A stretch of DNA of 64,000 bases from Patescibacteria group bacterium (GTDB taxonomy: Bacteria > Patescibacteriota > Patescibacteriia > Patescibacteriales > UBA12465). The notes beneath the pieces were generated by a model, which ran no database searches, was not told the origin of the DNA, and was given only the letters and a program-made list of their open reading frames with translations. Below are positions 6,656 to 63,415 of the stretch, in pieces (position 1 is the stretch's first letter; each line of letters starts with the position of its first letter). The stretch is taken from NCBI GenBank assembly GCA_041664445.1, contig JBAYKT010000002.1:8629-72628 (forward strand), in the 5' to 3' direction. The translations under genes were made by a program, and so were the position numbers.

Positions 6656-7849
6656 TTACCCCATCTTCTTCCGGATAAAGGCCGGGACACTCAAGTCATC
6701 ATCTTCATTAACGGGTTTTTCTACTTTTTTCTCGGGAATCGTCGGCTTTAGCGGTAAATTTTTAAAGACAGAGGAAAATTTAGCTTTATTTCGGTCTTCC
6801 CTAGCGGCCAGATCTTCTTTCTCGGTTTCCTTTTCAGCAATAAAGGTGTTGGGAGTATAGGCAGACTTGGAAGTCTCGCCTTTTTGACTCTTACTGTGGC
6901 CGTCAAAACCAGTAGCCACAACGGTAATTTTTATTTGATCTTTTAATTTTTCATCAATTACGGCACCGAAGATAATCTTCGCCTCTTCATCGGCCGCTGA
7001 GGTAATAACCTTAGCCGCCTCACTCACTTCAGTCATGCTTAAGTCAGCGCCGCCAGTAATCGTAAAGACAATACCGCGGGCGCCATCGATGGACATATCC
7101 AACAAAGTGGAATTGATTGCTTGTTTAGCCGCTTCAACCGCCTTATTTTCACCCGAAGCAGTTCCAATGCCCATTAAGGCCGAACCGGCATTAGACATAA
7201 TTGCTTTTACATCGGCAAAGTCGGCGTTAATAATACCAGGAACAGTAATAATCTCGGCGATACCTTGAACACCTTGGCGCAAAACATCATCTGCAGTTTT
7301 AAAGGCCTCTAACAAAGAAGTTTTCTTATCAATTACTTGCAGCAACTTATCATTAGAAATAGTGATGATGGTATCAACCTTGTCCGCCAGCTCCGCATAG
7401 CCCCTGTCGGCAATATTCTTGCGCTGGCCGCCTTCAAACATAAAAGGTTTAGTAACTACCGCGACAGTTAAAGCTCCTTGCTCCTTGGCAATTTGAGCCA
7501 CTACCGGCGAAGCTCCAGTTCCAGTACCTCCACCCAGTCCGCAAGTAACAAAAACCATATCACAGCCCTTCAAAGATTCCTTAATTTCATTAGCCGATTC
7601 TTCAGCCGCTGATTTTCCAAGCTCTGGATTCATGCCGGCTCCCAAACCTCTGGTCACTGTTTTGCCAATATGAATTTTCTCGCTGGCCTTATTATAATGC
7701 AAAGCCTGAATATCAGTATTGATGGCGACAAAACCAACGCCCTTAATTCCACTGTCAACCATCCGGTTGATAGCGGAATTACCGCCGCCGCCGACACCGA
7801 CTACTTTTATTTTAGCAAATGTTTCTATTTCTGGTTTTACTTCAGCCAT
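6656..7849 (-). CDS. ftsZ: Cell division GTPase FtsZ
   Basis: Tubulin signature [15 protein letters not shown], 397 aa, adjacent to ftsA. Confidence 0.95.
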
Positions 7850-21913: not shown

Positions 21914-21948
21914 AATATTATCATTTAGTATTATTCCCTAAATTTATA

Positions 21949-24900
21949 TTATTTAAAAAATATTATTTCCGCCGACTTAGTGCTTTCATTACCATTGCTA
22001 TCTAAAGCGGAAATCGCAAAATAATTATTACCGGTACTAAGTTTGGCTTTGTCCCAAGATAATGAAGAGGCGTTATTGACGGAATCGTATGATTCGCCAT
22101 AAAGATTACTCTTTACGCCCCGATAAACTCGATAGAACAAGGCATTATTAGTTTGCCAAGTAAATTTAATAGTATCCCCCTTATCTTCAACATTTAATCC
22201 AATCGGGGCTTGCGGCGGCGCCTGATCGGTTGGGGTCATGGTAGCAGCATCGCTCATTGTACTTTCCACCCTATTAGCCGAGATGCCCGTTAAGCGAAAA
22301 TCATAAGCTTGTCCATTTTTTAGAGAAGAAATATGCGCCGTACATTTGTAAACCGAGGAGAACGGCACGCAATAATCTTGCAACTTAAATTCTTGGGATT
22401 TAGTCAGCGCCTTACCGCTCTCACCATAATATATTTTGTAAGATACTGTCGGCGCATTAGCCGCAAACCAGGTAAAGGTAACATCCCCGCCAGTACCAGT
22501 ATCGGTTACGGTCTCAAACGCGGCTTCGCCAATTCCTGCTTCACGGAAAAAATATGATTCCTTCAAAACATTCCAAATACAGATACCATCTAAATGGCCA
22601 TCGCCATTTTGATCGGCACCGCAAGCAGAATTTAAACCGGCGCAAGTTGAGCTATCAGAGCTACAAATCAAAGTCGCACTCTGCCCTCTAATCACCGCCC
22701 TATCCGTAATCGCCGGCAAATCATCAATCGTTCCCGGAGCGCCAGCATCACGGCAATAATAAAACTTATAATTAAAATTGTTACAAGTTCCCCCGATAGA
22801 ACCGGTGCAGTTATCGCTCCAAGGATACCAAGTGCCGTTAGTATTTACTGGCGGCCAAGGATTATTACAAATGAAGACATAGAGATTAGCATTCCCACTT
22901 AAGTTATCGCCGGCTGAAAAAGCGTTGCGACAATTACTGGAACAAACATCGTCTGTACAAGCACAGCCAGAATTAACGGAAGAATTACTATCTAAGAACC
23001 TTACCATATCAATCGTCGCGGATAATTTAGTTTCCCCGTCAGTAATTCCATCTTTGGCTGCTAGCAAAACTTTATCAGGTCCAATACTGGCTATTGAGGC
23101 TACGCTCGCATCGCTCAAATTAAATTTCCAATCCCAGAAATAACCGGTAATCGGCTGAATAACTTGGCCGTCGGCGCTATAAGCTGAGGCCTTGAAAACT
23201 TTATCCTTATCACGCTTAGTATCAAAAGTCTTATCTTGAAAATTAGCGTCATTCTCGTCTAGACTGTTTTCGGTAGTATTGAATAAGTAGGATTCAGGGG
23301 CAATTTTAACCTGGCTAATGGCGCAAACTCCAGAATTAGCGCCCTTATCGGACAGGGTTTTAAATTGAACAATATAAGAATTTTTATAATTTTTATTATT
23401 AAAGCTTAAGGCGGCACCCTCAACACCCTCGATTCCTTCGCCATTTAAACCAATGCCGCTTAAACTGATAACTCCCGATTGGCTATTTAAATCTTCATCA
23501 CCCTTAACAATTAAGAAATACTTGGCCTCCGGAGTTAATAATTTATTAGGCGTAAAATTTAAAACTGTCTCATCACCGGAATACTCGCCGGAAATACTGC
23601 CCTGAAAGGAGCAATATAATTTATTTTGATCTGGCAGGTCAGCCAAAGCTTGATTGCCAAAAAGCTGGCTAATATACGATTTAAGCTTGCCAAAGATATT
23701 AGTAAACCAAGTTTGATTAACGGCCGCAAAATTACCGTCGCCTTCGTAGGCAAAGGTCCCGCTCGGACAAACCGCACCGCCATAATTCATTTCTTCCATT
23801 AATAGCGTATTAGCACTAAAGGAAGCGATATCCATTTGTTTATTAAAGGTAACTTTAATAACTGAGTTGCGACAAACATTAGTAGTCCCACTCGCTGGAA
23901 CTGAACCAGTTACAGCTGGACGGGAATCGCAACAAGTATCAATTCCGCAACCGACTGTAGCGGCATTACCGCAATCGCCATCATTCCTACAGCCACAACA
24001 TAATCCTCGATCAGCGCCGCTGCAATTTCCTTTGTCCGGTTGGCAATACAAATCAGGCGCTTCCGTAGTTTGACAAGCAGTCGGGTCAGCTGGGTTACAA
24101 CAACAGGCGCCGCAATCAGAAATATCAGTAGCGGTCGTCCCGGATTCAGTTAAACAAGAATGCCCCGGAAAATTACAAATTCCAAAATTACAAGTAGCCG
24201 TAGCTGAAGAAGAAACGCAATCTTGGCCAACACCGCCTTCGGCATTACCACAACGAGTAGAGCAAGTACTTAAATTATTAAAATCACCGGAAGTTTTAGG
24301 ATTTTGATCACAAGTACTATTACCGCTGGCATCAGTCTGACAATCATAATAAGCGCAGTAGCCTAAATCAGCGCCACTCGTAATTTGTGAACCACTTTTA
24401 CAAGTAGCTGTTGCTTGATCAAAACAACAGGAAGGGGCTAGGGTGCATTCATCTTTTTGACCATTGAAAAGTGAACAAAAATCTTGTCCAGGATTGGCCG
24501 CACAACCATCAACACAAGCTGGCGTATCTTTATAAGTACCAATTTTTACCGGAGTAGAGGAGGCGCAGGTAGCTGGATCGCCAATTGGCGGTGTCGTCGC
24601 GCTAAAACAATTATAATAACCGCAATAACCAAAATTAGGATCAGCAGGATTAGCGGAAATACTGGTTCCAGAACCGCCGCGACAAGAATCATCACCGGTG
24701 GCTGCGGTGCGATTAGCATCAAAACAGCAAGCAGCATTATGTTCGGAACAAGAACTTAGGCCAGCCAAACCGCTACAATCGGTACAAATTCCTCCTGGAT
24801 TTTGAGCGGTAATACTACAATACTGACCGCCATGCCCCGCACAATTACAAGCGGCATCGTGTTCAGCGACAGTTGTGCCCACATTAGCGCAACCAGAACA

Positions 24901-27663
24901 ACTGCCGAATCCCGCGCCATCATCAGTTGTATCCTGACCGCAGGTTCCCTTGCATTCCAAAGGCGCGCAACAATCTTGAGCGCTATTTTCTATACGGCAA
25001 CAACAATCACAGCTAGCCCCCTCGACGGAGACACAAGAATCAGGCTGAGAAATATCCGGATTACTTTCGCAAACAGAACCAGCGGGACAAATGGTATCGG
25101 AAACGCAACGGCCGCCAGAGCCCAATTGTGCGCAACTTAAACCAATAGCACAAATATCACAAGCTGAAGCCGTATCAACGCAAATATTATTAGAGCCTCT
25201 AACCCAAGCATCTGGACAAGAGGTATTAGTTTTTGTTTCCCACTTACCACCGGAATTACAAGTTAAGGACAAAGAAACATCCTGATTATTAATTCTGAAA
25301 GTTTGAGTTTTTGGCATACTGCAAACACCAGCACTACCATCTTTAACACATTTATTAAGCGTATCGTCATAAGTACAAGGAGCACCAAAAACTCCACAGC
25401 CAGTTACCGAAGCGCAGGAAAAATCACAAGTAGCGACTGTGGTTTTAGTGCCACCGGCATAAGGCGAGCAGGCTCCAGGAACATTAGGACAAGTAGCATT
25501 GACCTGACAAGCACCATAATAATCGGCCAAGGTAGCACAACTTTCCGTAGGATCGCTAGGATTGACAACAAATCCCGTATTAAAGTTCCATTCAAAAACG
25601 GAAGTCGGAATATCAATTAAACAAGCGGCTAAGTTAGCAACACAAGTTCCTTTCTTATAGGTATTACCCGGACAACAAACCTGGCCAGGACATTCAAGGT
25701 CTGAAGAACAAGCACTGATTTCGAAGTTTAATTCATTTCCCCATTCACCATTCTTTACTACTTTAACCGGACCAGTGATGGATTCGGCGGGAACATCCAC
25801 GGGAACGATATCAGCACCATTGTCTTGAGAAATAACACCATAAACTTGCTTGGCAGGATTAAACTGAACTAAAGAGTCATGCCCTACCTGACCTAAATAT
25901 TCGCCATAAACTTTGACTGGAGTAGATACACCTCCCTGTCTAGGTTCTAATTTACAAAGACTTGTTTTTAAAGATAAGGCATCATCAACTCTAAAAATAT
26001 TAGGATTTAATTGTTGACTATCGATAGTCTTACTATTGACTGTCATCCTAATCAAATAACTACCATTGGCTAGACCGTCCGGCACCTTAACTACCACCTG
26101 CTTATCGCTCCAGACCGAACTGGCGCAAACCGGCGGAAAACTATAATTAGCTTCGGCGCTAGCAAAATAAACATGGGAGCTTCCCTGCGCGCCGCCAAAA
26201 CCGCTGCCGGTAATCGTTACATATTGCCCGGCTACTCCTTGAGCCGGCGAGAAAGAAATAATGAAAGGACCATCATTTGGGTCAGCTTCTTTAACAAATT
26301 TTAAATAATTGCTACGCTCTTGGTTGCCGCTGATGTTATTAACCACAAAACTACCGGATTCTCCGGAACGAATATTGGGCGTAGCCGCCGTTCCCGATAA
26401 GCCGCTAGGGTGACTGAAATTAGAATCTAAACCCTGAACATTACTTTGGTAATTACCAAAATAAGCTTGGCCGGAATAAAGATTAATTCCTTGATAGGAA
26501 ACCGAAGAACTTAAAGCGCCTTTATCAGGACTAATTAAGCATAATCCCGGACGAGAAATACTATTAGCGATAAAATCTGGAATGATAGGACCATACTCAT
26601 CATTGGTAATATCTTCCGAGCCGTCTTTAGTAAGCACCTTGATAGCACCGCTTACAACTCCGGTTGGAACCGCAATAATTATTTGGTCATCTTGCCAAAA
26701 ATTAACACAAACCGGATTTATTTCCGAAGGATTACGTCCATTTAAAGAGCTACCCATGAAAACAACTTGGCTTTGGCCAGCAACATATTCGCCAAAATTC
26801 TTTCCCGAAATAGTCAGAAAATTATTAGCCGCGCCATTGGGTGTATCTAAATTACAACTAGTGGCACAATCGGTGTCGGTATCGCAAGCCTGATTGTTAT
26901 TTTCATTACAGAATCCGCCTAAAGGACTGACGGCAGTAATTACTGGCGGCCCAAAACAAGTACAAGTGGCGGCATCACAAGATAAATACTGCGCGCACAT
27001 ATTATTGTCAGCGTCGCAAGTCGCATTACTGACATCGGCATCGCAAGATTCGCCAGCTCCTGCTTTTGGCTGACAGGCACAATTACTGTCACAATAATCC
27101 GAAGGGGCACACATGTTATTTTCCATTTGACAGCCGGGATTAGGACTGGCATCACAACTTGTTTGATGAGGATTAATACTACAATCGGAACCAACACAGC
27201 CACCCCAAGAACCGTCTACACAGGCCATTGACCCGCCGCAACCGCAAGAAGAAACTTGTCCGTTAGTACATAAATTGGGGCCGCCATTACCGCTGATTGC
27301 TCCATATAATTTATTGATAACAAAGGTGGCAATCGCCCAAGAAGCTAAGATAACCGCCAAACCGATACTAGCGCTTACCAAGATTTTTTTAGCTTGGCTG
27401 ATTTTATCTTCTTCACCATTAGAAGTCATCCATAAAAAGCCGGCATAGATTATTAGGCCCAGAGCAATTACTCCCAAGAAACCAAGCGCAATATTAATAA
27501 TTCGACCAACCATTTCGCGTGGATCGCCATCGGCTAAAGCGCCGTTCAAACCATTATTTACCGCCTCAGTGCCAAAGTCTTGGGCAAATACTAAACGCCA
27601 AGCAAAAATACCAATGACTAGCACTATTAATGAAACAAGCTTTTTGCTTAATTTTGTTTTCAC
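21949..27663 (-). CDS. Giant (1904 aa) surface protein. The N-terminus is a signal peptide plus a VirB2/TrbC-like two-helix membrane hairpin of about 125 aa. It is followed by a huge Cys-rich extracellular region with C-terminal FN3-like domains.
   Basis: N-term ...LVFAQDFG|TEAVNN...DPREMVGRIINIALGFLGVIALGLIIYAGFLWMTSNGEEDKISQAKKILVSASIGLAVILASWAIATFVINKLYGAISGNGG. FN3-like PPQAPIGLNVEDKGDTIKFTWQ... at the C-terminus. Uninterrupted 5.7 kb ORF. Confidence 0.8.
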   Translation of the reverse strand: MKTKLSKKLVSLIVLVIGIFAWRLVFAQDFGTEAVNNGLNGALADGDPREMVGRIINIALGFLGVIALGLIIYAGFLWMTSNGEEDKISQAKKILVSASIGLAVILASWAIATFVINKLYGAISGNGGPNLCTNGQVSSCGCGGSMACVDGSWGGCVGSDCSINPHQTSCDASPNPGCQMENNMCAPSDYCDSNCACQPKAGAGESCDADVSNATCDADNNMCAQYLSCDAATCTCFGPPVITAVSPLGGFCNENNNQACDTDTDCATSCNLDTPNGAANNFLTISGKNFGEYVAGQSQVVFMGSSLNGRNPSEINPVCVNFWQDDQIIIAVPTGVVSGAIKVLTKDGSEDITNDEYGPIIPDFIANSISRPGLCLISPDKGALSSSVSYQGINLYSGQAYFGNYQSNVQGLDSNFSHPSGLSGTAATPNIRSGESGSFVVNNISGNQERSNYLKFVKEADPNDGPFIISFSPAQGVAGQYVTITGSGFGGAQGSSHVYFASAEANYSFPPVCASSVWSDKQVVVKVPDGLANGSYLIRMTVNSKTIDSQQLNPNIFRVDDALSLKTSLCKLEPRQGGVSTPVKVYGEYLGQVGHDSLVQFNPAKQVYGVISQDNGADIVPVDVPAESITGPVKVVKNGEWGNELNFEISACSSDLECPGQVCCPGNTYKKGTCVANLAACLIDIPTSVFEWNFNTGFVVNPSDPTESCATLADYYGACQVNATCPNVPGACSPYAGGTKTTVATCDFSCASVTGCGVFGAPCTYDDTLNKCVKDGSAGVCSMPKTQTFRINNQDVSLSLTCNSGGKWETKTNTSCPDAWVRGSNNICVDTASACDICAIGLSCAQLGSGGRCVSDTICPAGSVCESNPDISQPDSCVSVEGASCDCCCRIENSAQDCCAPLECKGTCGQDTTDDGAGFGSCSGCANVGTTVAEHDAACNCAGHGGQYCSITAQNPGGICTDCSGLAGLSSCSEHNAACCFDANRTAATGDDSCRGGSGTSISANPADPNFGYCGYYNCFSATTPPIGDPATCASSTPVKIGTYKDTPACVDGCAANPGQDFCSLFNGQKDECTLAPSCCFDQATATCKSGSQITSGADLGYCAYYDCQTDASGNSTCDQNPKTSGDFNNLSTCSTRCGNAEGGVGQDCVSSSATATCNFGICNFPGHSCLTESGTTATDISDCGACCCNPADPTACQTTEAPDLYCQPDKGNCSGADRGLCCGCRNDGDCGNAATVGCGIDTCCDSRPAVTGSVPASGTTNVCRNSVIKVTFNKQMDIASFSANTLLMEEMNYGGAVCPSGTFAYEGDGNFAAVNQTWFTNIFGKLKSYISQLFGNQALADLPDQNKLYCSFQGSISGEYSGDETVLNFTPNKLLTPEAKYFLIVKGDEDLNSQSGVISLSGIGLNGEGIEGVEGAALSFNNKNYKNSYIVQFKTLSDKGANSGVCAISQVKIAPESYLFNTTENSLDENDANFQDKTFDTKRDKDKVFKASAYSADGQVIQPITGYFWDWKFNLSDASVASIASIGPDKVLLAAKDGITDGETKLSATIDMVRFLDSNSSVNSGCACTDDVCSSNCRNAFSAGDNLSGNANLYVFICNNPWPPVNTNGTWYPWSDNCTGSIGGTCNNFNYKFYYCRDAGAPGTIDDLPAITDRAVIRGQSATLICSSDSSTCAGLNSACGADQNGDGHLDGICIWNVLKESYFFREAGIGEAAFETVTDTGTGGDVTFTWFAANAPTVSYKIYYGESGKALTKSQEFKLQDYCVPFSSVYKCTAHISSLKNGQAYDFRLTGISANRVESTMSDAATMTPTDQAPPQAPIGLNVEDKGDTIKFTWQTNNALFYRVYRGVKSNLYGESYDSVNNASSLSWDKAKLSTGNNYFAISALDSNGNESTKSAEIIFFK
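27280..27663 (-). repeat. Copy 1 of a roughly 380-bp nucleotide-level repeat encoding the shared N-terminal membrane module of the two giant paralogs
   Basis: Compare 27421-27500 (gaagtcatccataaaaagccggcatagattattaggcc...ccaaccat) with 30124-30205 (gaagtcatccataaaaatccagcgtagattattaaacc...ccaaccat). Protein identity over the module is very high. Confidence 0.6.
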
Positions 27664-27680
27664 AAATTTATGTTTTTAGA

Positions 27681-27711
27681 TAACCAAAAATGGCAATTAT
27701 TGACAATTGCC
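27681..27711 (-). terminator. Hairpin ggcaatt-attgac-aattgcc overlapping the stop of the 887-aa gene, followed on the minus strand by atttttggtt. Possible weak terminator or attenuator between the two giant genes.
   Basis: 7-bp stem with a short U-run. Weaker than the other terminators in the window. Confidence 0.35.
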
Positions 27712-30360
27712 GTTAACTAGCGAACTGGTGGCCACTCCGAAACAACATGAAGGACTCTGAGGAGTCGCCGCACAGCCCGGACCGGAGCTGGGTTTAAAGC
27801 AATTTTGAAAAATATTTTTTACACCAGAACCAATTTGCGAGTCATAAGTTATTGACTCTAAAAATGGAGAATGCTTTATTTTTGCAATAGTAATATCCGC
27901 AATTCCGTCCAATGGCAAGGAATCGACATCGGAATTATCCAACCAAAATCCCAGCGGTGTTGGCTCTGAACTCTTTAAATTTATAAATCTATGCAAAACC
28001 GGACTAGTTCCACTATCAACTATTTCGCCGCCGGAACGTAAAGTGCTGGACATCATTAAATTATTAAAAGTAATTTCTATCGGATCAGTTGGCGGAATAT
28101 CATTTTGGCCATTAGCAGGATTAATACTGGTAATCTCGGGTGGTGTAGTTTCTATTTTGTCATTTATAAAGAAGGCGTTACGATAGCTATCGCGATTGCT
28201 TCTGTTGCTAGGGAAATTATCGCTGAAAAAGCTAATTGGACCCTCAACAATTGTGTCCCGATTACCATCCAAAGAGTTAAGCGCCGCGTCAATAATACCA
28301 TCTAACTGGAGCGGGTTCGCGCTAGGATAGTTGCGACCGTTAACGTCTTGACAGGAACGATAGCCTAATTGATTTAAGGCGCAGGTTTTGAAAGGGCTAT
28401 AAGCGGCGCAATCAGCGTCACTGGCACAAACTTTCATATTGGCGGCCTTAAGCTCAACCGATAAATTACTATTAGCCGGCAAGCAGTATATTTTTTCACC
28501 GCAACCGTTAATTCCGCACTCATTATCAGAAATAAATTCTACAGTCCTATAGCTACCGCTAACATTAAAGCGTCCACTGACATAATTTCCGCGACAAACA
28601 TAGGCATCACATCGATAAGAGCGGCAATCAGCATTACTGGCGCAAACTGATCCGTCTACTTTACTGGTTGAAGAGGCGTTAACAACTTGGATATAATTAG
28701 CGACTTCAGAGGCAGTCCCGGATAATGTTAGCGGATTCATCGCCTCGTTAAAGTTAACTTTAATTATAGAATTCATTGGTGAGTCTGGACCACCTTTAAC
28801 CTGGCTGGCGAGTTGTCGATCAACCCCGCCCGTAAAGGCGCTGAGACTCAAGGCATTAGTATTACTGGTATTTAAACTTAAATTGTTGCCAGCTGCGCCA
28901 GCAACTTTGGCGGTTAGCAAAACTCGATTACCGGACCGATTAACAATAATAGCCGAGTTGCCACTTAATTGCGCTTGAATATTGGCCGCCTGGATACCGA
29001 TGTCGCAAGTTCCCGGAACAACAATATTATTATTTCCGCCGCTAGTCGCAAAAACATAAACTTCATTGCCGACGCTTAAGGTGTCAGCTAATTTTTCAGG
29101 ACTAATAGTTATCTCCCAAGAATCTCCGGCCGCATGACCAGTAGTTTTAAGACTAAAGTAACCATCAAAAACTACCGTATTTTGACCATCAAAGTCAGAC
29201 ACTCCCAACAAGGCGTTAGTATTACCATTAAATATTTGTGCCTTATCCGGAGTCGCCGCTGGGACAATCACCTTAAACTTGTTAATCAAACCATGATAAT
29301 CAAGCACGACTTCCGCATTAGGCAAAACGCTGATAACACTAGCTGGAGCATAAGTCTGAGGACAACTATTTACAAAAATATCAGCGCTGGCATTTAGAGC
29401 CGGAGTATCGATATTCAATAAATCGCGTTCATTATCCGGACGCGGATAAAGAGAATTAAACATTACTTGGGGTGGCGTTAAATCCAAATTAGTGCTGACT
29501 TCAAATCCCCATTGGAAGCCATTATTGCTACAAGTGCTGAACATGGATGTTCCGTCGTCCTTCTTGAAATCATTAGTTAATTTGATGTCATATTCAGTAT
29601 TGGCACTCTCTGAACCTAAATAACTTAAGGGGGATAACACTAAAGTTAGCTTATCAGCCGAGACGGCCACTGAAACATCAGTTACATTAGTATTTGGAGT
29701 TGGGCAAGAATTAGTACAAGCATCACCCAAACTGCTTTTAAAAATCCGTATAGCCTGAGGGTTAATCAGGGAGCAGGCGGCATTATCGCAAGCGCAGGCC
29801 GCACCGCTAGCATTTACGCACACTGAATCAAGCCCGATAACTTCTTTAAAGCTAATAATAATTGCGGAATTACGAGCGACATTATTCTGGCTATTTTCTG
29901 GGTAAACCATATCAACGGAACAGGCGCCCATTGCCCCAAATCCAGAGTTAGCTAAATTATTGCCGGAGTTCTGAATAGGATTACCTTCAACTCCAGAAAT
30001 TGCTCCCGCTAAGCGTGAGATAATAAAAGTGGTAATTGCCCAAGCAGATAAAGTAACGGCTAAACCGATGGTGGCATTCTTAAGAATTGTTTTTGCCCGG
30101 CTAATCTTATCTTCTTCACCACCCGAAGTCATCCATAAAAATCCAGCGTAGATTATTAAACCTAAAACAATCACCCCCAAGAAACTGAGGATGATTTGAA
30201 TAATACGGCCAACCATCGCACGCGGGTCACCGCCGGCAAGGGCGATAGAATTATTAACGGCGTTAATTCCGAAATCCGCTTGAGCAGACACGAAAGCGAC
30301 CGGCAAAAGAGCGGCGATAGTTACGAAAAGACCGTAAATTATTTTATTTTTTTTCAACAT
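27697..30360 (-). CDS. Giant (887 aa) surface protein, paralog of 21949-27663. It has the same VirB2/TrbC-like N-terminal hairpin and a Cys-rich extracellular region.
   Basis: N-term ...FVSAQADFG|INAVNN...DPRAMVGRIIQIILSFLGVIVLGLIIYAGFLWMTSGGEEDKISRAKTILKNATIGLAVTLSAWAITTFIISRLAGAISGVEG. Many Cys. Confidence 0.8.
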   Translation of the reverse strand: MLKKNKIIYGLFVTIAALLPVAFVSAQADFGINAVNNSIALAGGDPRAMVGRIIQIILSFLGVIVLGLIIYAGFLWMTSGGEEDKISRAKTILKNATIGLAVTLSAWAITTFIISRLAGAISGVEGNPIQNSGNNLANSGFGAMGACSVDMVYPENSQNNVARNSAIIISFKEVIGLDSVCVNASGAACACDNAACSLINPQAIRIFKSSLGDACTNSCPTPNTNVTDVSVAVSADKLTLVLSPLSYLGSESANTEYDIKLTNDFKKDDGTSMFSTCSNNGFQWGFEVSTNLDLTPPQVMFNSLYPRPDNERDLLNIDTPALNASADIFVNSCPQTYAPASVISVLPNAEVVLDYHGLINKFKVIVPAATPDKAQIFNGNTNALLGVSDFDGQNTVVFDGYFSLKTTGHAAGDSWEITISPEKLADTLSVGNEVYVFATSGGNNNIVVPGTCDIGIQAANIQAQLSGNSAIIVNRSGNRVLLTAKVAGAAGNNLSLNTSNTNALSLSAFTGGVDRQLASQVKGGPDSPMNSIIKVNFNEAMNPLTLSGTASEVANYIQVVNASSTSKVDGSVCASNADCRSYRCDAYVCRGNYVSGRFNVSGSYRTVEFISDNECGINGCGEKIYCLPANSNLSVELKAANMKVCASDADCAAYSPFKTCALNQLGYRSCQDVNGRNYPSANPLQLDGIIDAALNSLDGNRDTIVEGPISFFSDNFPSNRSNRDSYRNAFFINDKIETTPPEITSINPANGQNDIPPTDPIEITFNNLMMSSTLRSGGEIVDSGTSPVLHRFINLKSSEPTPLGFWLDNSDVDSLPLDGIADITIAKIKHSPFLESITYDSQIGSGVKNIFQNCFKPSSGPGCAATPQSPSCCFGVATSSLVNGNCQ
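29975..30360 (-). repeat. Copy 2 of the roughly 380-bp repeat encoding the shared N-terminal module
   Basis: See copy 1 at 27280-27663. Confidence 0.6.
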
Positions 30361-54247: not shown

Positions 54248-55117
54248 CTACCTAATTTCAGCCAAAATATCTATCGTGTCATTAATATCGGTGCGCTGAA
54301 CCTCAATCCCCATAATTTCCGCTCTATCTAGAACCTCTTGATTGGGATGTCCAAAACGATTATCTTTTCCCACCGAAATTATCATTTTTTGGGGTCTAAC
54401 TGCCTTCAAAAAAGCCTCTGTATTAGAAGTTTTGGAGCCATGATGCGAAGCTTTAAAAATATCCGCACGTAAATCAAAACTACTTTTTATTAACGCACTT
54501 TCTGCTGCCGCTTCATTATCACCAGCAAATAAAAATTCATGGTCAGCGCAATCCAATTTGGCCGTCAAGGAATTATTTTCGTTATCTTTAATATTCAAAC
54601 TAGTAGGATTTATAAAAAACAAACGGCAATAGCCATCCAAACGCAAAGTACCGGTTGTTTTTATATTTATTAGCGGCAAATTTAATTTTTTAATTTCTTC
54701 TTGAAGCGCCATAACTGCCGGCGAAGAAATTTCTGAAGATACAAAAATAATTTTAGCAACCTGATAACGTTTTAAAACTTCAACTAATCCTATTATGTGG
54801 TCATCGTGAAAATGACTAATGATAATATAATCTAAGCGGCGAATATAAAAAGGCAGCACTTCTCCCAAGCGATGCAGAATTAAATTATCCGGTCCGCCAT
54901 CAATTAAAATATTTTTATTGCTTGGCGTTCTAATTAAAATGGCGTCTCCTTGGCCGACATTAAAAAAATAAACATGTAGAAGATTTCTCCTTACTGAAAA
55001 AATAAATAAAAAAATGCCGAACAATAAAATAAATCCGATAATAATTAAAAAATATTTATTTTTTCGGCAACGCGCTATTGTTTTATCTTTTTTAAACATA
55101 TATTCCATTATAAACAA
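54248..55117 (-). CDS. Stand-alone ComEC/Rec2-type metallo-beta-lactamase domain protein with an N-terminal TM anchor
   Basis: YFFNVGQGDAILIRTPSNKNILIDGG and ISHFHDDHIIGL motifs. 289 aa, lacking the competence channel domain. Confidence 0.75.
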   Translation of the reverse strand: MFIMEYMFKKDKTIARCRKNKYFLIIIGFILLFGIFLFIFSVRRNLLHVYFFNVGQGDAILIRTPSNKNILIDGGPDNLILHRLGEVLPFYIRRLDYIIISHFHDDHIIGLVEVLKRYQVAKIIFVSSEISSPAVMALQEEIKKLNLPLINIKTTGTLRLDGYCRLFFINPTSLNIKDNENNSLTAKLDCADHEFLFAGDNEAAAESALIKSSFDLRADIFKASHHGSKTSNTEAFLKAVRPQKMIISVGKDNRFGHPNQEVLDRAEIMGIEVQRTDINDTIDILAEIR

Positions 55118-55132
55118 TAGCGCCTAAACGCG

Positions 55133-55169
55133 CCCTAAAAACAAAAACCATCCTGATTCCGCAGGACGG
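55133..55169 (-). terminator. Intrinsic terminator for the Lys-rich small gene (minus strand): ccgtcctg-cggaat-caggatgg followed by tttttgttttt
   Basis: 8-bp stem with one mismatch, followed by a strong T-run. Confidence 0.5.
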
Positions 55170-55225
55170 CCTTTGTATAATTTTTAAATTGATAAAATCT
55201 ATTAAAAAGTAATAAATTTTAAAAA

Positions 55226-55381
55226 TTATTTTTTCTTGGCGGTTTTCTTCTTAGGAGCAGCCTTTTTAACAGCTTTTTTTACAACCTTCTTAGCCGGTTT
55301 CTTAGCAACCTTCTTAACGGCTTTCTTGGCTGGCTTCTTAGCAGCAACCTTCTTCACAACCTTTTTTGCTTTCTTTTTCAT
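55226..55381 (-). CDS. Unannotated 51-aa Lys/Ala-rich histone-H1-like DNA-binding protein MKKKAKKVVKKVAAKKPAKKAVKKVAKKPAKKVVKKAVKKAAPKKKTAKKK
   Basis: ATG at 55379-55381 is preceded on the minus strand by GGGGGTGAG, a rare strong SD-like site in this window. It has its own terminator at 55133-55169 and an AT-rich promoter region upstream. The plus-strand ORF 55236-55457 (FLAGFLATF repeats) is its antisense shadow. Confidence 0.55.
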   Translation of the reverse strand: MKKKAKKVVKKVAAKKPAKKAVKKVAKKPAKKVVKKAVKKAAPKKKTAKKK

Positions 55382-55518
55382 AATTCTCACCCCCTTTCTT
55401 AAAAAAATTTTTTGTTTTTTTTCTTTTGATCAAAAAAAAATTTTTTATTTTTTATAATATACTTAAATTATACAACTAATAAAAATAACTAGCAATAGTT
55501 TTTTACTTTTTTGTAAAA

Positions 55519-55545
55519 AAAATCTCCGGCGCCGGTAGCGCCGAA
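55519..55545 (-). terminator. Intrinsic terminator downstream of glyQS (minus strand): cggcgc-cggta-gcgccg plus T8
   Basis: The minus-strand read gives gagattttttttacaa after the stem. Confidence 0.5.
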
Positions 55546-55600
55546 GAAATTTTTATCTGCCAAACTATTTTTTAAAATATTTTTTCTGGGATTTAAACGT

Positions 55601-56989
55601 TTAAATTTTTTCTTGAAAAAATTTTCTTAAATCATTTATTTTTATTCTTTCTTGTTTCATGGTATCGCGATCGCGCACCGTCACTTCTTCATTTTCCAAA
55701 GTATCAAAATCTACTGTTAAACAATAAGGGGTACCAATTTCATCTTGACGACGATATCTTTTACCGATGTTACCGTTATCATCAAACTCCGAACGCCAAT
55801 CTTTTTTTAAATCATCAAAAATTTCTCTGGCTTTAGCCACTAATTCTGGTTTATTTTTTAATAACGGGAAAACAGCAATTTTAACTGGGGCTAACTTCGG
55901 TGCTAAGCGCAAAACAGTTCTCATTTCTTCTCCCACCGCTTCTTCTTGATAAGCTTCGCAAAATACGGCCAAAAAAGTTCTACCGACGCCAGCTGAAGTT
56001 TCCACTACATGCGGAATAAATTTTTCATTGGTGGTCGGATCCAAATAATTTAAATCTTGTCCAGAAAATTTACTATGTTGGGTTAAATCATAATCGCCGC
56101 GAGCATGGACTCCTTCTAATTCCTTAAAGCCAAAAGGAAAGTTATATTCAATGTCATAAGCTTCCTGGGCATAAAAAACTAAATTTTCATGCTTATGCCA
56201 CTTTAAATTTTCGGGGGCAATGCCTAAATCAAGATAAAAATTGAAACGGGTCTCGCGCCATTTTTCAAAATAGACCATATCATCTCCCGGCTTTACGAAA
56301 TATTGCATTTCCATCTGCTCAAACTCCCGCGTTCTAAAAACAAATTGACGAGCAGTGATTTCATTGCGAAAAGCTTTGCCGATTTGCGCAATTCCGAAAG
56401 GAATTTTAACTCTGGCGGTATCAACTACATTTTTAAAATTAACATATATACCCTGACAGGTTTCGCCACGCAAATAAGTCGGCTCTTTAGACCAATCACC
56501 GGTAAAGTTCCCTAAATTTGATTGCACTAATAAATTAAATTTCTTTCCAGGAGTAAAATCTTGCGCCCCGCAACTCGGACATTTTATTTTTTGCTTATTG
56601 TCTTCAAAAATTTGGTTAATTTCGTCTTCGGTCATTTTTTCATCAGCAAAAATTCCTGCCTCCTCTAATAAAGAGTCTAAGCGCAAGCGACTATGGCATT
56701 TGCGGCATTCAGTGAGCGGATCGGAAAATCCCTTAACATGGCCGGAAGCTTCCCAAATTTTCGGATTCATAAAAATAGCAGAATCCAAACCTACAACATC
56801 ATCACGTAATTGAGTCATTGCCCGCCACCATTCCTTCTTAATATTGTTAGCGAGTTCCACGCCATAAGGACCAAAATCATAAACCGCTGGAAAGCCGCCA
56901 TAAATTTCCGAGGATGGAAAAACAAATCCGCGGCGTTTAGCGAGAGAGACTATTTTTTCTAAATTATTCTGGGCTTCACTTTTCTTCAT
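55601..56989 (-). CDS. glyQS: Glycine--tRNA ligase (dimeric alpha2 type)
   Basis: N-terminal LAKRRGFVFPSSEIYGG and class II motifs. 462 aa. Confidence 0.9.
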   Translation of the reverse strand: MKKSEAQNNLEKIVSLAKRRGFVFPSSEIYGGFPAVYDFGPYGVELANNIKKEWWRAMTQLRDDVVGLDSAIFMNPKIWEASGHVKGFSDPLTECRKCHSRLRLDSLLEEAGIFADEKMTEDEINQIFEDNKQKIKCPSCGAQDFTPGKKFNLLVQSNLGNFTGDWSKEPTYLRGETCQGIYVNFKNVVDTARVKIPFGIAQIGKAFRNEITARQFVFRTREFEQMEMQYFVKPGDDMVYFEKWRETRFNFYLDLGIAPENLKWHKHENLVFYAQEAYDIEYNFPFGFKELEGVHARGDYDLTQHSKFSGQDLNYLDPTTNEKFIPHVVETSAGVGRTFLAVFCEAYQEEAVGEEMRTVLRLAPKLAPVKIAVFPLLKNKPELVAKAREIFDDLKKDWRSEFDDNGNIGKRYRRQDEIGTPYCLTVDFDTLENEEVTVRDRDTMKQERIKINDLRKFFQEKI

Positions 56990-57002: not shown

Positions 57003-58700
57003 TTACATTTCGTCTAAGGTGTCTAAACCGATAACATCCAAACCATTTTTTAAAACTTGCGACACGGCTTTAATTAGGGCTAAACGTACTTTTTTAATTT
57101 TTTTATCAGCTTTTAAAATATTGACGGCATGATAATAATCATTGGACAGCTGGGCAAGTTCAAAAAGATACTTGGTTAATTCACTCGGATTGCGCTTAAC
57201 GCTAGCTAAAATTATTATTTCCGGATATTTGGCGATCTTTATCAAGAGTTCCGCTTCTTTTTTCTCTAAGAGCAAAGAGAAATCAATTTTACCAAGCAAA
57301 GAAACGCCTGATTCTTTACGGAGAATGCTCTGAAGACGCGCATAGCTATACTCTAAATAACAAGCGGTATAACCATCGAACTTTAAGGACTCTTCAATAT
57401 TAAAGGTGATAATCTTATCGGCGCTGACTTTAAGCATCTCAAATTTAATAATACCGATTGTTAAAACATCGGCCACCCGAGTCACCTGTTCATCACTCCA
57501 ATCTTCATGTTTGCTTCGAGTTTCCTTAAGTAATCGCGCCCTAAGTTTAGTTTTTAGCTCTTCATAAGTAATAACGTTACCGGTACGCGAAGACATCATT
57601 CCTCCCGGCAAAGTCACGAAGTCATAAGGTAAATGAGTTAAACGTTGTTGATAACCCAAAAGCTCCAATACTTTAAATAATTGCTTAAAGTGAAGACTTT
57701 GACGAACATCAACGACATAAATAGACTCTACTAAATTATATAGGCTGAACTTATTAACCGCGAGTGCTAAATCGGCCACTGGGTACAGAGCCGTGCCATC
57801 GGATCTGATAATCGGCAATACGCCTAAATCATATTTTTCTAAATTAGCAATAATCGCCCCCTCGCTTTTAATTAAAATATTTTTAGCCAACATGGTATTA
57901 ACCATTTCCAGACCTTCGGCAATCACCTCGCTCTCATAAAAGGTTTTTTCAAATTTAACATCCAACTCTTTATATATAGAGGCAAAATAATCAATGCTCC
58001 AGCCTCTCGTTTCTTTCCAAAGAGTATAATTATCCCCGCTCCGGCTTTCAATTTCCTGCATTATTTTAGCTACTTCCAATTTATACTCCGGCCTATCAGT
58101 TAATTTTTGGCTAGCTTCAGCATAACATTTCCCCAATAACCAGCCCTTGGCTTCATTTTGATTGGTATATTCCGGATTCTTTTTTAAGTTCCAAATAGTT
58201 TTAGCGACATGAATACCAAAATCATTAATATAAGAGACGGGTATTGATTTAAAACCGTTGGCGCTTAATAGGCGATTAATGGCGTCGCCGTAAGCGATAT
58301 TGCGCAAATGCCCGACATGATATTCTTTATGAGTATTACCATTAGAATACTCAATCATAATTTGTTGCTGCCGGCCATTATTATTGCGGCCATAATTATC
58401 TTTTCCTTTTTTAATTTGCGCAATCACTTCAGTCGCTAATAATTTAGGAATGATAAAAAAATTAAGATAAGGGCCGACTGGTCTAACTTCTGAAAAGTAA
58501 ACGGCTAATTCCTGATTTTGCTTAATTGTTTCGGCCCATTTCTTGGCTAGTTCCACCGGACTAATATTTTCTTTTTTTGCTGGTTCAAAGCAAGCCAGAC
58601 TCAAATCGCCTAAATCAGAGCTAGGCGGATAAGAAAAAACAAGCGCGGAAGCGCTAAGTTGAGAAGTTATTTTATTTTTTAGACTTTCCAGAAAAGTCAT
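57003..58700 (-). CDS. argS: Arginine--tRNA ligase
   Basis: HIGH-region variant HVGHLRN, DALK-type anticodon-binding C-terminus, 565 aa. Confidence 0.9.
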   Translation of the reverse strand: MTFLESLKNKITSQLSASALVFSYPPSSDLGDLSLACFEPAKKENISPVELAKKWAETIKQNQELAVYFSEVRPVGPYLNFFIIPKLLATEVIAQIKKGKDNYGRNNNGRQQQIMIEYSNGNTHKEYHVGHLRNIAYGDAINRLLSANGFKSIPVSYINDFGIHVAKTIWNLKKNPEYTNQNEAKGWLLGKCYAEASQKLTDRPEYKLEVAKIMQEIESRSGDNYTLWKETRGWSIDYFASIYKELDVKFEKTFYESEVIAEGLEMVNTMLAKNILIKSEGAIIANLEKYDLGVLPIIRSDGTALYPVADLALAVNKFSLYNLVESIYVVDVRQSLHFKQLFKVLELLGYQQRLTHLPYDFVTLPGGMMSSRTGNVITYEELKTKLRARLLKETRSKHEDWSDEQVTRVADVLTIGIIKFEMLKVSADKIITFNIEESLKFDGYTACYLEYSYARLQSILRKESGVSLLGKIDFSLLLEKKEAELLIKIAKYPEIIILASVKRNPSELTKYLFELAQLSNDYYHAVNILKADKKIKKVRLALIKAVSQVLKNGLDVIGLDTLDEM

Positions 58701-62839: not shown

Positions 62840-63415
62840 ATGATAAATAAAAAATTCTTAGACGATTTAAAAAAAGACTATCAAGCTAACGAAAGTGAAC
62901 GCCGACAAATTATCAGCGCCTCTAACGGCATTCTTTTTGAAGCTAAAAAAACTATTTTTTCCTTACAGCGCCAGGATTTTAAAACTGCCGAAACTAAAAT
63001 AACCGAAATGGAAAAAGCGCTGGCCAACTTAGAAAAACGCTTCGGGGCTGATAGACTAAAAAAAGAAGGCGCTTACAAAGCAGCCGCTGAAGAATATTTG
63101 GAAGGCAAAACTTTTTATTTAATAATCAAAAAGAAAGAGATTAATTCCAGCGCTGGCCTAAGTCTTGATTATGAATCATATTTAGGCGGTATTTGCGATT
63201 TAATCGGCGAACTAGTGCGTTATGCTACTAATCAAGCCGCTAAAGGCAAATTTGCCGAAGTCGCAAAAATAAAAAAAGCCGCCGAAGATATTATGGCGCA
63301 GTTGATTGATTTTGATATGACTGGATATCTGAGAACTAAATATGATCAAGCGCGCGGACACTTAAGAAAATTGGAACAAATGGCTTACGAGATTAAAATG
63401 CGAATCGGCAAATAA
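62840..63415 (+). CDS. Translin/TRAX-family protein (C3PO-like) retaining both TRAX-type catalytic motifs
   Basis: YLGGICDLIGELVRYA compared with human translin/TRAX YLLGVADLTGELMRLA. C-terminal LRTKYDQARGHLRKLEQMAYEIKMRIG compared with LRKRYDGLKYDVKKVEEVVYDLSIRG. An ExxE motif (EEYLE) plus DxxxE (DLIGE). 191 aa. Confidence 0.7.
   Translation: MINKKFLDDLKKDYQANESERRQIISASNGILFEAKKTIFSLQRQDFKTAETKITEMEKALANLEKRFGADRLKKEGAYKAAAEEYLEGKTFYLIIKKKEINSSAGLSLDYESYLGGICDLIGELVRYATNQAAKGKFAEVAKIKKAAEDIMAQLIDFDMTGYLRTKYDQARGHLRKLEQMAYEIKMRIGK

What the first reader, a model, noticed from the sequence alone, without database searches (positions are those of the whole stretch)
55226..55381. Hidden 51-aa Lys/Ala-rich histone-H1-like gene, with the annotated plus-strand ORF as its antisense artefact
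The minus strand encodes MKKKAKKVVKKVAAKKPAKKAVKKVAKKPAKKVVKKAVKKAAPKKKTAKKK. This is a classic AKKA/KKPA repeat protein like bacterial H1-like nucleoid proteins (Hc1, BpH1 or AlgP tail type). It has the strongest SD-like site in the window (GGGGGTGAG, 5-9 nt before the ATG). It has its own terminator at 55133-55169 and a 220-nt AT-rich promoter region. The track reports only the complementary ORF 55236-55457, whose FLAGFLATFLTAFLAGFL repeats are the mirror image of the AAG/GCC repeats.
Basis: seen in the sequence. Interest (0 to 1): 0.55.

Follow-up and report, generated by a model that had tools for sequence, protein, structure and literature searches.

The report
Tiny lysine-rich histone-like protein gene
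The minus strand carries a real, conserved 51-codon gene for a half-lysine, histone-H1-tail-like protein in an ultrasmall (Patescibacteria) bacterium; it is also the only gene seen in this lineage with a very strong ribosome-binding site, a pattern so far described only for the ribosomal protein bS21 gene of Bacteroidota.

Summary
Window 55226-55381 (-) is an ATG-to-TAA ORF of 51 aa (27 Lys, 11 Ala, 8 Val, 3 Pro; pI 11.4). It has its own sigma-70 promoter, an unstructured 5'UTR, an extended Shine-Dalgarno (SD) site and an intrinsic terminator. Seven syntenic orthologues (ArgRS-GlyRS-[K-rich]-MBL) were found in Patescibacteria assemblies. They keep the frame, the ATG, the SD, the promoter and a terminator that covaries, while protein length ranges from 34 to 72 aa. 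The plus-strand ORF has no SD, and in two relatives it has no start codon, so it is an antisense artefact. No curated family matches. The likeness to H1, Hc2 or AlgP tails rests on composition and repeats, not on demonstrable homology. The likeliest role is an abundant polycationic nucleic-acid (nucleoid) binder, but this is inferred.

One result was unexpected. About 100 neighbouring genes in this clade lack SD sites (median -1 kcal/mol), whereas this gene pairs 12-14 bp with the 16S tail (-20 to -24 kcal/mol) in every orthologue. This mirrors rpsU (bS21) in SD-less Bacteroidota and leaves open a ribosome-linked or autoregulated role. Whole genomes, rpsU and the 16S tail could not be checked. 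Verdict: new variant of a known kind, moderate interest.

The parts
55523..55547 (-). Intrinsic terminator of the upstream glycyl-tRNA synthetase gene (55601-56989). It insulates the small gene as a separate transcription unit.
   Evidence: 11-bp stem with 7 GC pairs, followed by TTTTTTTT. Equivalent hairpins with different sequences occur in all orthologues.
55467..55503 (-). Promoter AAAAACTATTGCTA-N17-TATAAT: an A-tract, the -35 element TTGCTA and the -10 element TATAAT. The inferred transcription start is near 55460.
   Evidence: scores 10 of 12 matches with a 17-nt spacer. In one search, AAAAACTATTGC is invariant in 7 sequences while the flanking DNA diverges. It is also kept in L081 with one mismatch. 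It has a single exact match in the window.
55382..55460 (-). 5'UTR of about 79 nt, A/U-rich and unstructured.
   Evidence: MFE -5.2 kcal/mol, centroid fully unpaired, z = +1.28. The SD and the AUG are both accessible.
55387..55399 (-). Extended Shine-Dalgarno site AGAAAGGGGGUGA. It can form 13 pairs (one G.U) with a canonical tail UCACCUCCUUUCU. The core ends 8 nt before the ATG.
   Evidence: -21.3 kcal/mol here and -20.5 to -23.8 in 7 orthologues. GG(A/G)GGTGA is invariant. All substitutions are A<->G at positions opposite U.
55226..55381 (-). Coding sequence for a 51-aa protein of (K-K-x-x)n type, Lys/Ala/Val/Pro-rich. The stop codon TAA is at 55226-55228.
   Evidence: The repeat has a 12-nt period. 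AAG codons are enriched (16 of 27 against 28% in the window's genes, p = 6e-4). A-runs of 8 or more are avoided (1 observed against 8.1 expected across 8 orthologues). AlphaFold2 predicts a single helix over residues 2-41, pLDDT 84, from a single sequence.
55193..55221 (-). AU-rich hairpin in the 3'UTR (AAAAUUUAUUA / UAAUAGAUUUU).
   Evidence: 100% of cells paired, but with one-sided changes only. L081 has a different 9-bp AU hairpin at the same place. Its function is unknown.
55171..55185 (-). Conserved 3'UTR motif AAAAATTATACAAAG, immediately 5' of the terminator stem. The A-tract can extend the hairpin by pairing with the U-tract.
   Evidence: present in 7 of 8 orthologues, including L081, whose ArgRS is only 55% identical. 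In the MFE structure, ACAAAGG pairs with the U-run.
55137..55169 (-). Intrinsic terminator of the small gene: stem CCGUCCUG / CAGGAUGG, loop CGGAAU and a U-tract.
   Evidence: z = -4.35. In one search, the helix is 96% paired across 7 sequences and 4 of 8 pairs change on both sides (compensatory).
55236..55457 (+). Antisense ORF (73 aa, TTG start, Phe/Leu/Ala/Gly/Thr-rich). It is a by-product of the AAR/GCN/GTN codon repeats and not a gene.
   Evidence: There is no SD (+1.3 kcal/mol). There is no start codon in L004 and L006, and the ORF is truncated and variable in the others. The promoter and both terminators face the other way.

Best explanation
This is a genuine, independently transcribed small gene of a Patescibacteria (Parcubacteria/Paceibacteria-type) bacterium.

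Shown here: a strong promoter with an A-tract, an unstructured A/U-rich leader, an extended SD, a 51-codon ORF, a structured 3'UTR and an intrinsic terminator, all conserved in relatives.

Inferred: the product is a 5.6-kDa polycation (51% Lys) made of K-K-(A/V/P)-(A/V) tetrapeptides. It probably has no fixed fold on its own. I infer that it is made in large amounts and binds polyanions through charge. The most likely target is the AT-rich chromosome, in the manner of the C-terminal tail of histone H1 and of bacterial H1-like tails (Hc2, MDP1/Hlp, the Ku PAKKA tail, HBHA, AlgP). Binding would neutralise and compact DNA in a very small cell.

The number of repeats, and therefore the charge, drifts rapidly by in-frame gain and loss of 12-nt units.

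Translation depends on 12-14 bp of pairing with the 16S 3' tail in a lineage whose other genes use SD-less, A-rich, G-poor start contexts. This would give the mRNA either privileged (very high) or ribosome-state-dependent translation.

The confidence of 0.55 is for the whole statement. Taken separately, I put the claim that this is a real minus-strand gene at about 0.95 and the nucleoid-binding role at about 0.5.
For: Evidence that the gene is real:
- Seven syntenic orthologues (L001-L006 and L081) lie in the ArgRS-GlyRS-[K-rich]-MBL arrangement, with ArgRS 55-77% and MBL 39-58% identical.
- All start with ATG preceded by GG(A/G)GGTGA. All are in frame, 50-59% Lys, and 34-72 aa long.
- The promoter, SD and TTATG are invariant while the rest of the intergenic DNA diverges.
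- The terminator helix covaries in 4 of 8 pairs.
- The antisense ORF is not conserved.
- Near-identical strains differ only by in-frame repeat blocks, giving 44, 57 or 61 aa.
- Lys codon choice avoids A-runs of 8 or more (1 observed against 8.1 expected), and AAG is enriched (p = 6e-4).

Evidence on expression signals:
- Promoter 10 of 12 matches.
- Accessible leader.
- SD of -21.3 kcal/mol against -7.4 or weaker for 44 other genes.

Evidence for a polyanion-binding role:
- Composition and repeat period.
- Published DNA binding by Lys-rich PAKKA / AKKA / pentamer repeats in Ku (PMC3553676), HBHA (PMC10665949) and Hc2, whose size also varies by repeat number (PMC2848022).
- AlgP, an H1-like protein that acts on polyphosphate granules (PMC9239181).
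- Similar stand-alone K-rich genes with their own terminators occur in other lineages (L083, L085, L086).
Against: - There is no experimental or expression data.
- No statistically significant homologue or family assignment exists, so the H1-like label rests on composition alone.
- A polycation of this kind would also bind rRNA, mRNA, polyphosphate or envelope polymers. Nothing in the neighbourhood (tRNA synthetases, an MBL-fold membrane protein) points to DNA.
- The extended SD in an SD-less lineage is known elsewhere for a ribosomal protein gene, not a nucleoid protein gene (PMC9976891).
- Only about 64 kb of this genome, plus 9-20 kb of each relative, could be examined.
Confidence: 0.55

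Rival explanations
1. The protein is a ribosome-associated factor, working like bS21 without being related to it. It would bind the 30S platform or the 16S 3' tail (or rRNA more generally, like the Ala/Lys-rich tails that Parcubacteria add to uS19). Its synthesis would be autoregulated through the extended SD: ribosomes with a free anti-SD translate it preferentially, and the product then occludes the anti-SD.
For: - The extended SD (12-14 bp, -20 to -24 kcal/mol) is conserved in 8 of 8 orthologues, while about 100 other genes of the clade have none.
- Start contexts are G-depleted and A-rich, as in Bacteroidia.
- In Bacteroidota the single gene with such an SD (below -13 kcal/mol, mode about -20, up to 13 bp) is rpsU, which is autoregulated by bS21-lacking ribosomes (PMC9976891, PMC7797042, PMC13000453).
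- bS21 is frequently absent from Parcubacteria, and uS19 there carries an Ala/Lys-rich extension of about 25 aa (PMC9297842).
- The protein is small and very basic, like bS21, bS22 or bTHX-type proteins (my own knowledge).
Against: - Length (34-72 aa) and repeat number vary even between near-identical strains. This is unusual for a stoichiometric ribosomal protein with a defined site.
- There is no similarity to bS21 or to any ribosomal protein family.
- K-rich genes of other lineages (L083, L085) lack a strong SD.
- The presence of rpsU and of the anti-SD in this clade could not be checked.
- A strong SD may simply give high expression.
Confidence: 0.2
2. The protein binds another polyanion or acts outside the cytoplasm. 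Candidates are organising polyphosphate (as AlgP does), binding envelope or host surface polymers as an adhesin (as HBHA and Hlp do), or acting as a cationic membrane-active peptide against the host of this presumably episymbiotic bacterium.
For: - H1-like AlgP spaces polyphosphate granules (PMC9239181).
- HBHA and Hlp Lys-rich repeats bind heparan sulphate as well as DNA (PMC10665949, PMC2409343).
- Ku-tail PAKKA peptides penetrate cells (PMC10739243).
- AlphaFold2 predicts one long cationic helix.
Against: - There is no signal peptide, no adjacent exporter or immunity gene and no polyphosphate kinase nearby.
- The hydrophobic residues are only Ala and Val.
Confidence: 0.1
3. The plus-strand ORF 55236-55457 is the real gene (a small hydrophobic Phe/Leu-rich protein), or the locus is a non-coding tandem repeat or RNA and neither frame is translated.
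For: - The plus-strand ORF is longer (73 aa) and is stop-free in all relatives.
- The reverse complement of the conserved 3'UTR motif reads TTGTATAAT, which resembles a -10 element.
Against: - Stop-free antisense frames follow automatically from AAR/GCN/GTN/CCN codons.
- The plus-strand ORF has no SD (+1.3 kcal/mol), and its start codon is absent or variable in relatives.
- No conserved -35 element exists on that strand (by inspection).
- Both terminators and the promoter serve the minus strand.
- ATG plus SD plus an open frame are kept through many in-frame length changes.
- No Rfam family matches.
Confidence: 0.03

Closest known systems
Chlamydial Hc2 (HctB) and other bacterial histone-H1-like Lys/Ala-rich repeat proteins (AlgP, BpH1, the N-terminal domain of Streptomyces DdbA)
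   Same: Extreme Lys/Ala content, short tandem peptide repeats and repeat-number polymorphism between close strains (Hc2: PMC2848022; here 44, 57 or 61 aa). Presumed charge-based binding of DNA or polyphosphate (PMC9239181, PMC3643593).
   Different: - Those proteins are 100-350 aa or carry extra domains. This one is 34-72 aa and consists of repeats only.
- The repeat here is a KKxx tetrapeptide with Val, not KPAA or a pentamer.
- Pfam HC2 and Hc1 do not match.
- The phylum is different.
- No developmental or regulatory context is known.
Lys-rich PAKKA/AKKA C-terminal tails of mycobacterial HU (MDP1/Hlp), Ku and HBHA
   Same: The same kind of low-complexity motif (PAKK, AAKK, KKAV), which experiments show binds DNA and modulates compaction (PMC3553676, PMC10665949).
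   Different: Those are appendages of folded DNA-binding or adhesin domains. Here the 'tail' is the whole protein and has its own promoter, SD and terminator.
Eukaryotic linker histone H1 C-terminal domain; 'tail-only' H1 of kinetoplastids and Tetrahymena (my own knowledge)
   Same: Lys/Ala/Pro-rich and disordered when free, becoming helical on DNA. The kinetoplastid proteins lack the globular winged-helix domain, as this one does.
   Different: There is no detectable homology and no S/TPKK phosphorylation motifs. This protein is much shorter and bacterial. The resemblance is probably convergent.
The rpsU (bS21) extended-SD autoregulatory circuit of Flavobacteriia/Bacteroidota
   Same: An SD-less genomic background. 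One small, very basic protein gene carries an exceptionally long SD (10-13 bp or more, about -20 kcal/mol) that is conserved across the clade (PMC9976891, PMC13000453; here).
   Different: - The product is not bS21 (no Pfam or NCBIfam hit).
- It is low-complexity and varies in length.
- Anti-SD sequestration, presence of bS21 and uniqueness of the SD genome-wide are all untested here.
Ala/Lys-rich C-terminal extension of uS19 specific to Parcubacteria (Tsurumaki et al. 2022, PMC9297842)
   Same: The same phylum, the same composition and a similar length (about 25 aa).
   Different: That segment is fused to a ribosomal protein. This one is a free-standing gene next to tRNA synthetase genes.

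Membership tests
Histone H1-like nucleoprotein HC2 (Pfam PF07382) / Hc1 (PF07432) | A significant match to the family profile (Hc1: a conserved N-terminal domain; HC2: Lys/Ala/Arg pentamer array). | tested here: not met
   hmmscan against Pfam-A at E<=1 returned no family. One distant K-rich database protein (P0007) carries a precomputed PF07382 hit, but the query does not.
Linker histone H1/H5 (PF00538) | A globular winged-helix domain. | tested here: not met
   No Pfam hit. The 51 aa are entirely repeat sequence.
H1-type Lys/Ala/Pro-rich low-complexity 'tail' (a descriptive class, not a homology family) | At least 40% Lys with Ala/Pro/Val spacers in short tandem repeats, and a strongly basic pI. 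| tested here: met
   K 53%, A 22%, V 16%, P 6%, pI 11.4. The repeat has a period of 12 nt or 4 aa. All 8 orthologues have the same composition.
H1-type Lys/Ala/Pro-rich low-complexity 'tail' | Binds and compacts DNA. | not testable with these tools
   This needs EMSA, compaction assays or localisation. It is inferred only from published behaviour of similar repeats (PMC3553676, PMC10665949).
HU/IHF (PF00216) with a Lys-rich tail (MDP1/Hlp type) | An N-terminal HU fold. | tested here: not met
   No Pfam or NCBIfam hit. The ORF begins directly with MKKK.
Ribosomal protein bS21 (PF01165) | Sequence match to the bS21 profile. | tested here: not met
   No hit in Pfam (E<=1) or NCBIfam (E<=10). No PDB chain matches at E<=10.
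bS21-type extended-SD autoregulatory circuit (Bacteroidota rpsU) | An exceptionally strong SD (below -13 kcal/mol, at least 10 bp) on one gene in an otherwise SD-poor genome, conserved across the clade. | tested here: inconclusive
   The feature is met for all sequence available: -20.5 to -23.8 kcal/mol in 8 of 8 orthologues against -7.8 or weaker at the annotated or first starts of about 100 other genes. However, only 64 kb of this genome and 9-20 kb of each relative were visible, and these contain no ribosomal protein genes.
bS21-type extended-SD autoregulatory circuit | The product controls anti-SD availability on the 30S subunit, and the 16S rRNA retains CCUCC. | not testable with these tools
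   There is no rRNA gene in the window. GGAGG is depleted inside coding sequences (0.58x, z = -3.25), but so is CCTCC (0.53x), which makes the result ambiguous.

The most novel reading that the evidence does not exclude
In this SD-less Patescibacteria clade, the tiny poly-Lys/Ala protein may be the partner of the 16S 3' tail. On this reading it is a non-homologous functional replacement for bS21, which is often missing in Parcubacteria. It would occlude or manage the anti-SD, and its own synthesis would be set by an rpsU-like autoregulatory loop through the 12-14-bp extended SD. That would make it a second, independently evolved case of 'specialised ribosomes plus a single SD gene', and a new lineage-specific ribosome component made of low-complexity sequence.
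Probability: 0.15. Interest if true: 0.8.

Novelty: new variant of a known kind. Interest (0 to 1): 0.5.

Why it matters
Patescibacteria make up a large share of bacterial diversity, yet how they organise their chromatin and start translation is almost unknown.

This locus supplies three things:

1. A concrete, probably very abundant, unannotated or mis-annotated small protein for the nucleoid or ribosome biology of ultrasmall cells. It is a minimal 'tail-only' H1-like polycation.
2. Evidence that a Parcubacteria lineage starts translation without SD sites (A-rich, G-poor leaders with T at -1) yet keeps one gene with an extreme SD. That implies the anti-SD is retained and used for a special purpose, the question that the Bacteroidota rpsU work opened.
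3. A practical warning for annotation. Gene callers either pick the antisense ORF or over-extend the N-terminus, and profile searches are blind to such proteins.

Tried and rejected
- **Profile and sequence searches found nothing usable.** I ran Pfam, NCBIfam, PDB, phmmer on 5.8 billion clusters and exhaustive phmmer on 1.84 billion representatives. The only hits at E<=0.001 were two long repetitive proteins. Low complexity defeats these tools, so the lack of hits is not evidence of absence.
- **A rerun at E<=10 was informative by inspection only**.
- **Exact-sequence look-ups found nothing on record.** This covered the window protein, six orthologues, antisense products and GlyRS.
- **Codon-position or dN/dS discrimination between the strands was rejected.** The third codon positions of the two overlapping frames coincide, and AAA<->AAG is often silent on both strands.
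- **Rfam gave nothing.** There were only sub-threshold terminator-like hits, and the window has no RNA genes.
- **The promoter motif is not a lineage-wide promoter.** It has one exact copy in the window.
- **An antisense promoter from the TTGTATAAT reverse complement of the 3'UTR motif is not supported.** There is no conserved -35 element, and L005 lacks the motif.
- **Internal SD avoidance as a test for a free anti-SD was ambiguous.** GGAGG is depleted, but so is CCTCC.
- **The supplementary tables of PMC9297842 are not held**.
- **The AlphaFold2 model** (one helix, pLDDT 84, single sequence) is treated only as helical propensity, so no fold search was run.

Full report
**1. Observation**

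The coding DNA is a degenerate tandem repeat with a 12-nt period, which corresponds to K-K-x-x. The Lys autocorrelation peaks at lag 4.

The purine tract AGAAAGGGGGTGA (55399-55387) ends 8 nt before the ATG when counted from the GGGGG core.

Its stem is at 55169-55148 and its U-tract at 55147-55137. The 3' region folds at -27.4 kcal/mol, z = -4.35 against shuffles.

The 219-nt upstream spacer is 22.8% GC. It holds the GlyRS terminator and a TTGCTA-17-TATAAT promoter. The leader is unstructured, so the SD and the AUG are exposed.

The plus-strand ORF 55236-55457 also exists.

**2. Which strand is the gene**

The window belongs to a Patescibacteria genome. GlyRS hits reach 88% identity in Patescibacteria/Parcubacteria MAGs, and the gene content is typical of that group.

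Six GTDB genomes (L001-L006) and one JGI metagenome contig (L081) share the order ArgRS-GlyRS-[small gene]-MBL. ArgRS is 55-77% identical and MBL 39-58% identical.

In all seven, an ORF of 34-72 aa follows GlyRS on the same strand. It begins ATG AAA/CCA..., is 50-59% Lys and ends in KKK(K/R).

The alignment of the upstream regions shows AAAAACTATTGC (around the -35 element), TATAAT, GG(A/G)GGTGA and TTATG invariant or nearly so, inside otherwise diverged DNA.

Downstream, the terminator helix is 96% paired, with compensatory changes in 4 of 8 pairs.

The antisense reading frames stay stop-free, as they must opposite AAR/GCN/GTN codons. But they have no start codon at all in L004 and L006, are cut to 26-33 aa in L001 and L002, and never have an SD.

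Three near-identical strains in the public protein collection differ only by in-frame repeat blocks, giving mature lengths of 44, 57 and 61 aa.

Lys codons are arranged so that A-runs of 8 or more are avoided: 1 observed against 8.1 expected across 8 orthologues, with none of 5000 shuffles as low. AAG is enriched over the window's usage (p = 6e-4).

The minus-strand gene is therefore real and the plus-strand ORF is its mirror image.

Public pipelines do call the Lys-rich strand in at least one relative, but with an over-long N-terminus. For example, '...SLQKGGDNM-PAKK...' contains KGGD, which is the translated SD. One JGI record carries a wrong name.

**3. What it is like**

No curated model matches it: Pfam at E<=1, NCBIfam at E<=10 and PDB at E<=10 all return nothing. 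HMMER finds no significant relative among 1.8-5.8 billion proteins. This is expected for such low complexity.

By inspection, the E<=10 list contains many free-standing (A/V/T/P)KK-repeat proteins. Some sit just upstream of secA in other SD-poor lineages (L083, L085). Another sits in a different context with an ordinary SD (L086).

The class 'bacterial H1-like Lys/Ala repeat protein' is known: Hc2, AlgP, the MDP1 and Ku tails, HBHA and DdbA (PMC2848022, PMC9239181, PMC3553676, PMC10665949, PMC3643593). This protein shares its composition, repeat character and length polymorphism, but not a demonstrable family. It is a 'tail-only' version.

AlphaFold2 predicts one long helix over residues 2-41 with pLDDT 84, from a single sequence. 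I read this only as helical propensity on binding a polyanion.

**4. The unexpected feature**

I computed duplex energies between the 18-22 nt before each start codon and a canonical 16S tail (GAUCACCUCCUUUCU). The results were:

| Sequence set | Energy (kcal/mol) |
|---|---|
| This gene | -21.3 |
| First starts of 45 long window ORFs | median -1.1, minimum -5.9 |
| 2000 random 18-mers | median -2.2, minimum -13.6 |
| The 7 orthologues | -20.5 to -23.8 (12-14 pairs) |
| Other genuine genes in those loci | none below -8 |

All SD substitutions among orthologues are A<->G at positions opposite U, so pairing is kept.

The other genes use a different start context. G falls to 0-5% at positions -8 to -1, A reaches 61-68% at -6 and -5, and T occupies -1 in 87% of genes.

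This is the pattern described for Bacteroidota. There ribosomes ignore SD sites, and a single gene, rpsU (bS21), carries an extended SD (below -13 kcal/mol, mode about -20, up to 13 bp) that allows autoregulation by bS21-free ribosomes (PMC7797042, PMC9976891, PMC13000453).

For Parcubacteria, Tsurumaki et al. report three relevant points: frequent loss of bS21, an anti-SD motif detectable in only 48% of genomes, and an Ala/Lys-rich extension on uS19 (PMC9297842).

I found no paper that links a Lys-rich small gene to an extended SD in Patescibacteria.

**5. Mechanism**

Shown: a self-contained, conserved expression unit with strong signals; a polycationic repeat product under selection for frame, composition and codon arrangement; and a unique extended SD in every part of the clade that could be sampled.

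Inferred, best reading: an abundant charge-neutralising binder of the AT-rich chromosome. The extended SD would give its mRNA privileged access to ribosomes that otherwise start on SD-less leaders.

Main rival: a ribosome or 16S-tail partner autoregulated like bS21. Rapid length variation argues against a fixed ribosomal site. The SD parallel and the phylum's loss of bS21 argue for it.

Lesser rivals are polyphosphate binding, a surface or host-directed role, and a non-coding or plus-strand reading. The last is effectively excluded.

**6. Limits**

- Only 64 kb of this genome and 9-20 kb of each relative were visible, with no rRNA or ribosomal protein genes.
- I could not check rpsU, the 16S tail or genome-wide SD statistics.
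- Depletion of GGAGG inside coding regions (0.58x, z = -3.25) would fit a free anti-SD. But CCTCC is equally depleted, so this test is inconclusive.

**7. Verdict**

The H1-like nucleoid label is plausible but unproven. The kind of protein is known, while the free-standing minimal form in Patescibacteria with a lone extended SD is a new variant. Interest is moderate (0.5). It would be high if the ribosome-linked reading proved true.

Noticed in passing
window, 38 ATG-start long ORFs (e.g. 55601-56989, 57003-58700, 6656-7849): The start-codon context is SD-less. G falls to 0-5% at positions -8 to -1, A reaches 61-68% at -6 and -5, and T occupies -1 in 87% of genes. This resembles the Kozak-like initiation context described for Bacteroidia.
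   Followed up: partly
window 55171-55221 (-); L001-L004, L006 and L081 at the equivalent place: The 3'UTR of the small gene keeps an AU-rich hairpin followed by an invariant AAAAATTATACAAAG just before the terminator. This holds even in L081, whose ArgRS is only 55% identical. The reverse complement reads TTGTATAAT, identical to the -10 region of the sense promoter, but no conserved -35 element accompanies it. Its function is unknown.
   Followed up: partly
window coding sequences overall: Compared with synonymous-codon shuffles, GGAGG (0.58x), GAGGT (0.59x) and CCTCC (0.53x) are depleted, and GGCGG is enriched 1.96-fold (z = +8.9). Possible causes are anti-SD avoidance, restriction-site avoidance or codon-pair bias. 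This is unresolved.
   Followed up: partly
window 62840-63415 (+); L081 1899-2474: A Translin-family protein (PF01997, E = 1e-20) is encoded next to a 1003-aa double T2SSE/type IV pilus ATPase. It is conserved at 65% identity in L081. Translin is mainly known from eukaryotes and archaea.
   Followed up: no
window 18251-30360 (-): Three giant ORFs (1220, 1904 and 887 aa) lie here. Two of them have an N-terminal T4SS-pilin-like segment plus Ig-like (Big_5, TIG) domains. These are probably surface or pilus-associated proteins typical of episymbiotic Patescibacteria.
   Followed up: no
L083 10097-10234; L085 8109-8279: Similar free-standing Lys-rich genes (about 45-57 aa) lie directly upstream of secA in two other SD-poor lineages. 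They lack a strong SD (-1.2 and -8.8 kcal/mol). Many genes in L083 have TATAAT-like boxes 6-10 nt before the ATG, which suggests leaderless mRNAs.
   Followed up: partly
P0011, P0013, P0019, P0016 (public protein collection): Public gene calls for orthologues are N-terminally over-extended by about 44 residues through the promoter and leader. P0016 is named 'acyl CoA:acetate/3-ketoacid CoA transferase beta subunit' by its source, which is evidently a mis-annotation.
   Followed up: yes
window 55361-55367 (-), codons 5-7 of the small gene (GCA AAA AAG): An in-frame A-AAA-AAG heptamer occurs here, the dnaX-type -1 slippery site. A -1 shift would end after KKGCEEGCC. I did not check whether it is conserved. 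Such heptamers are hard to avoid in a Lys-rich gene.
   Followed up: no
window 54248-55117 (-): The downstream gene encodes an N-terminal transmembrane segment plus a metallo-beta-lactamase domain (ComEC C-terminal-like). The ORF finder starts it at TTG 55117, only about 20 nt after the small gene's terminator. The real start is probably one of the ATGs a few codons downstream.
   Followed up: no
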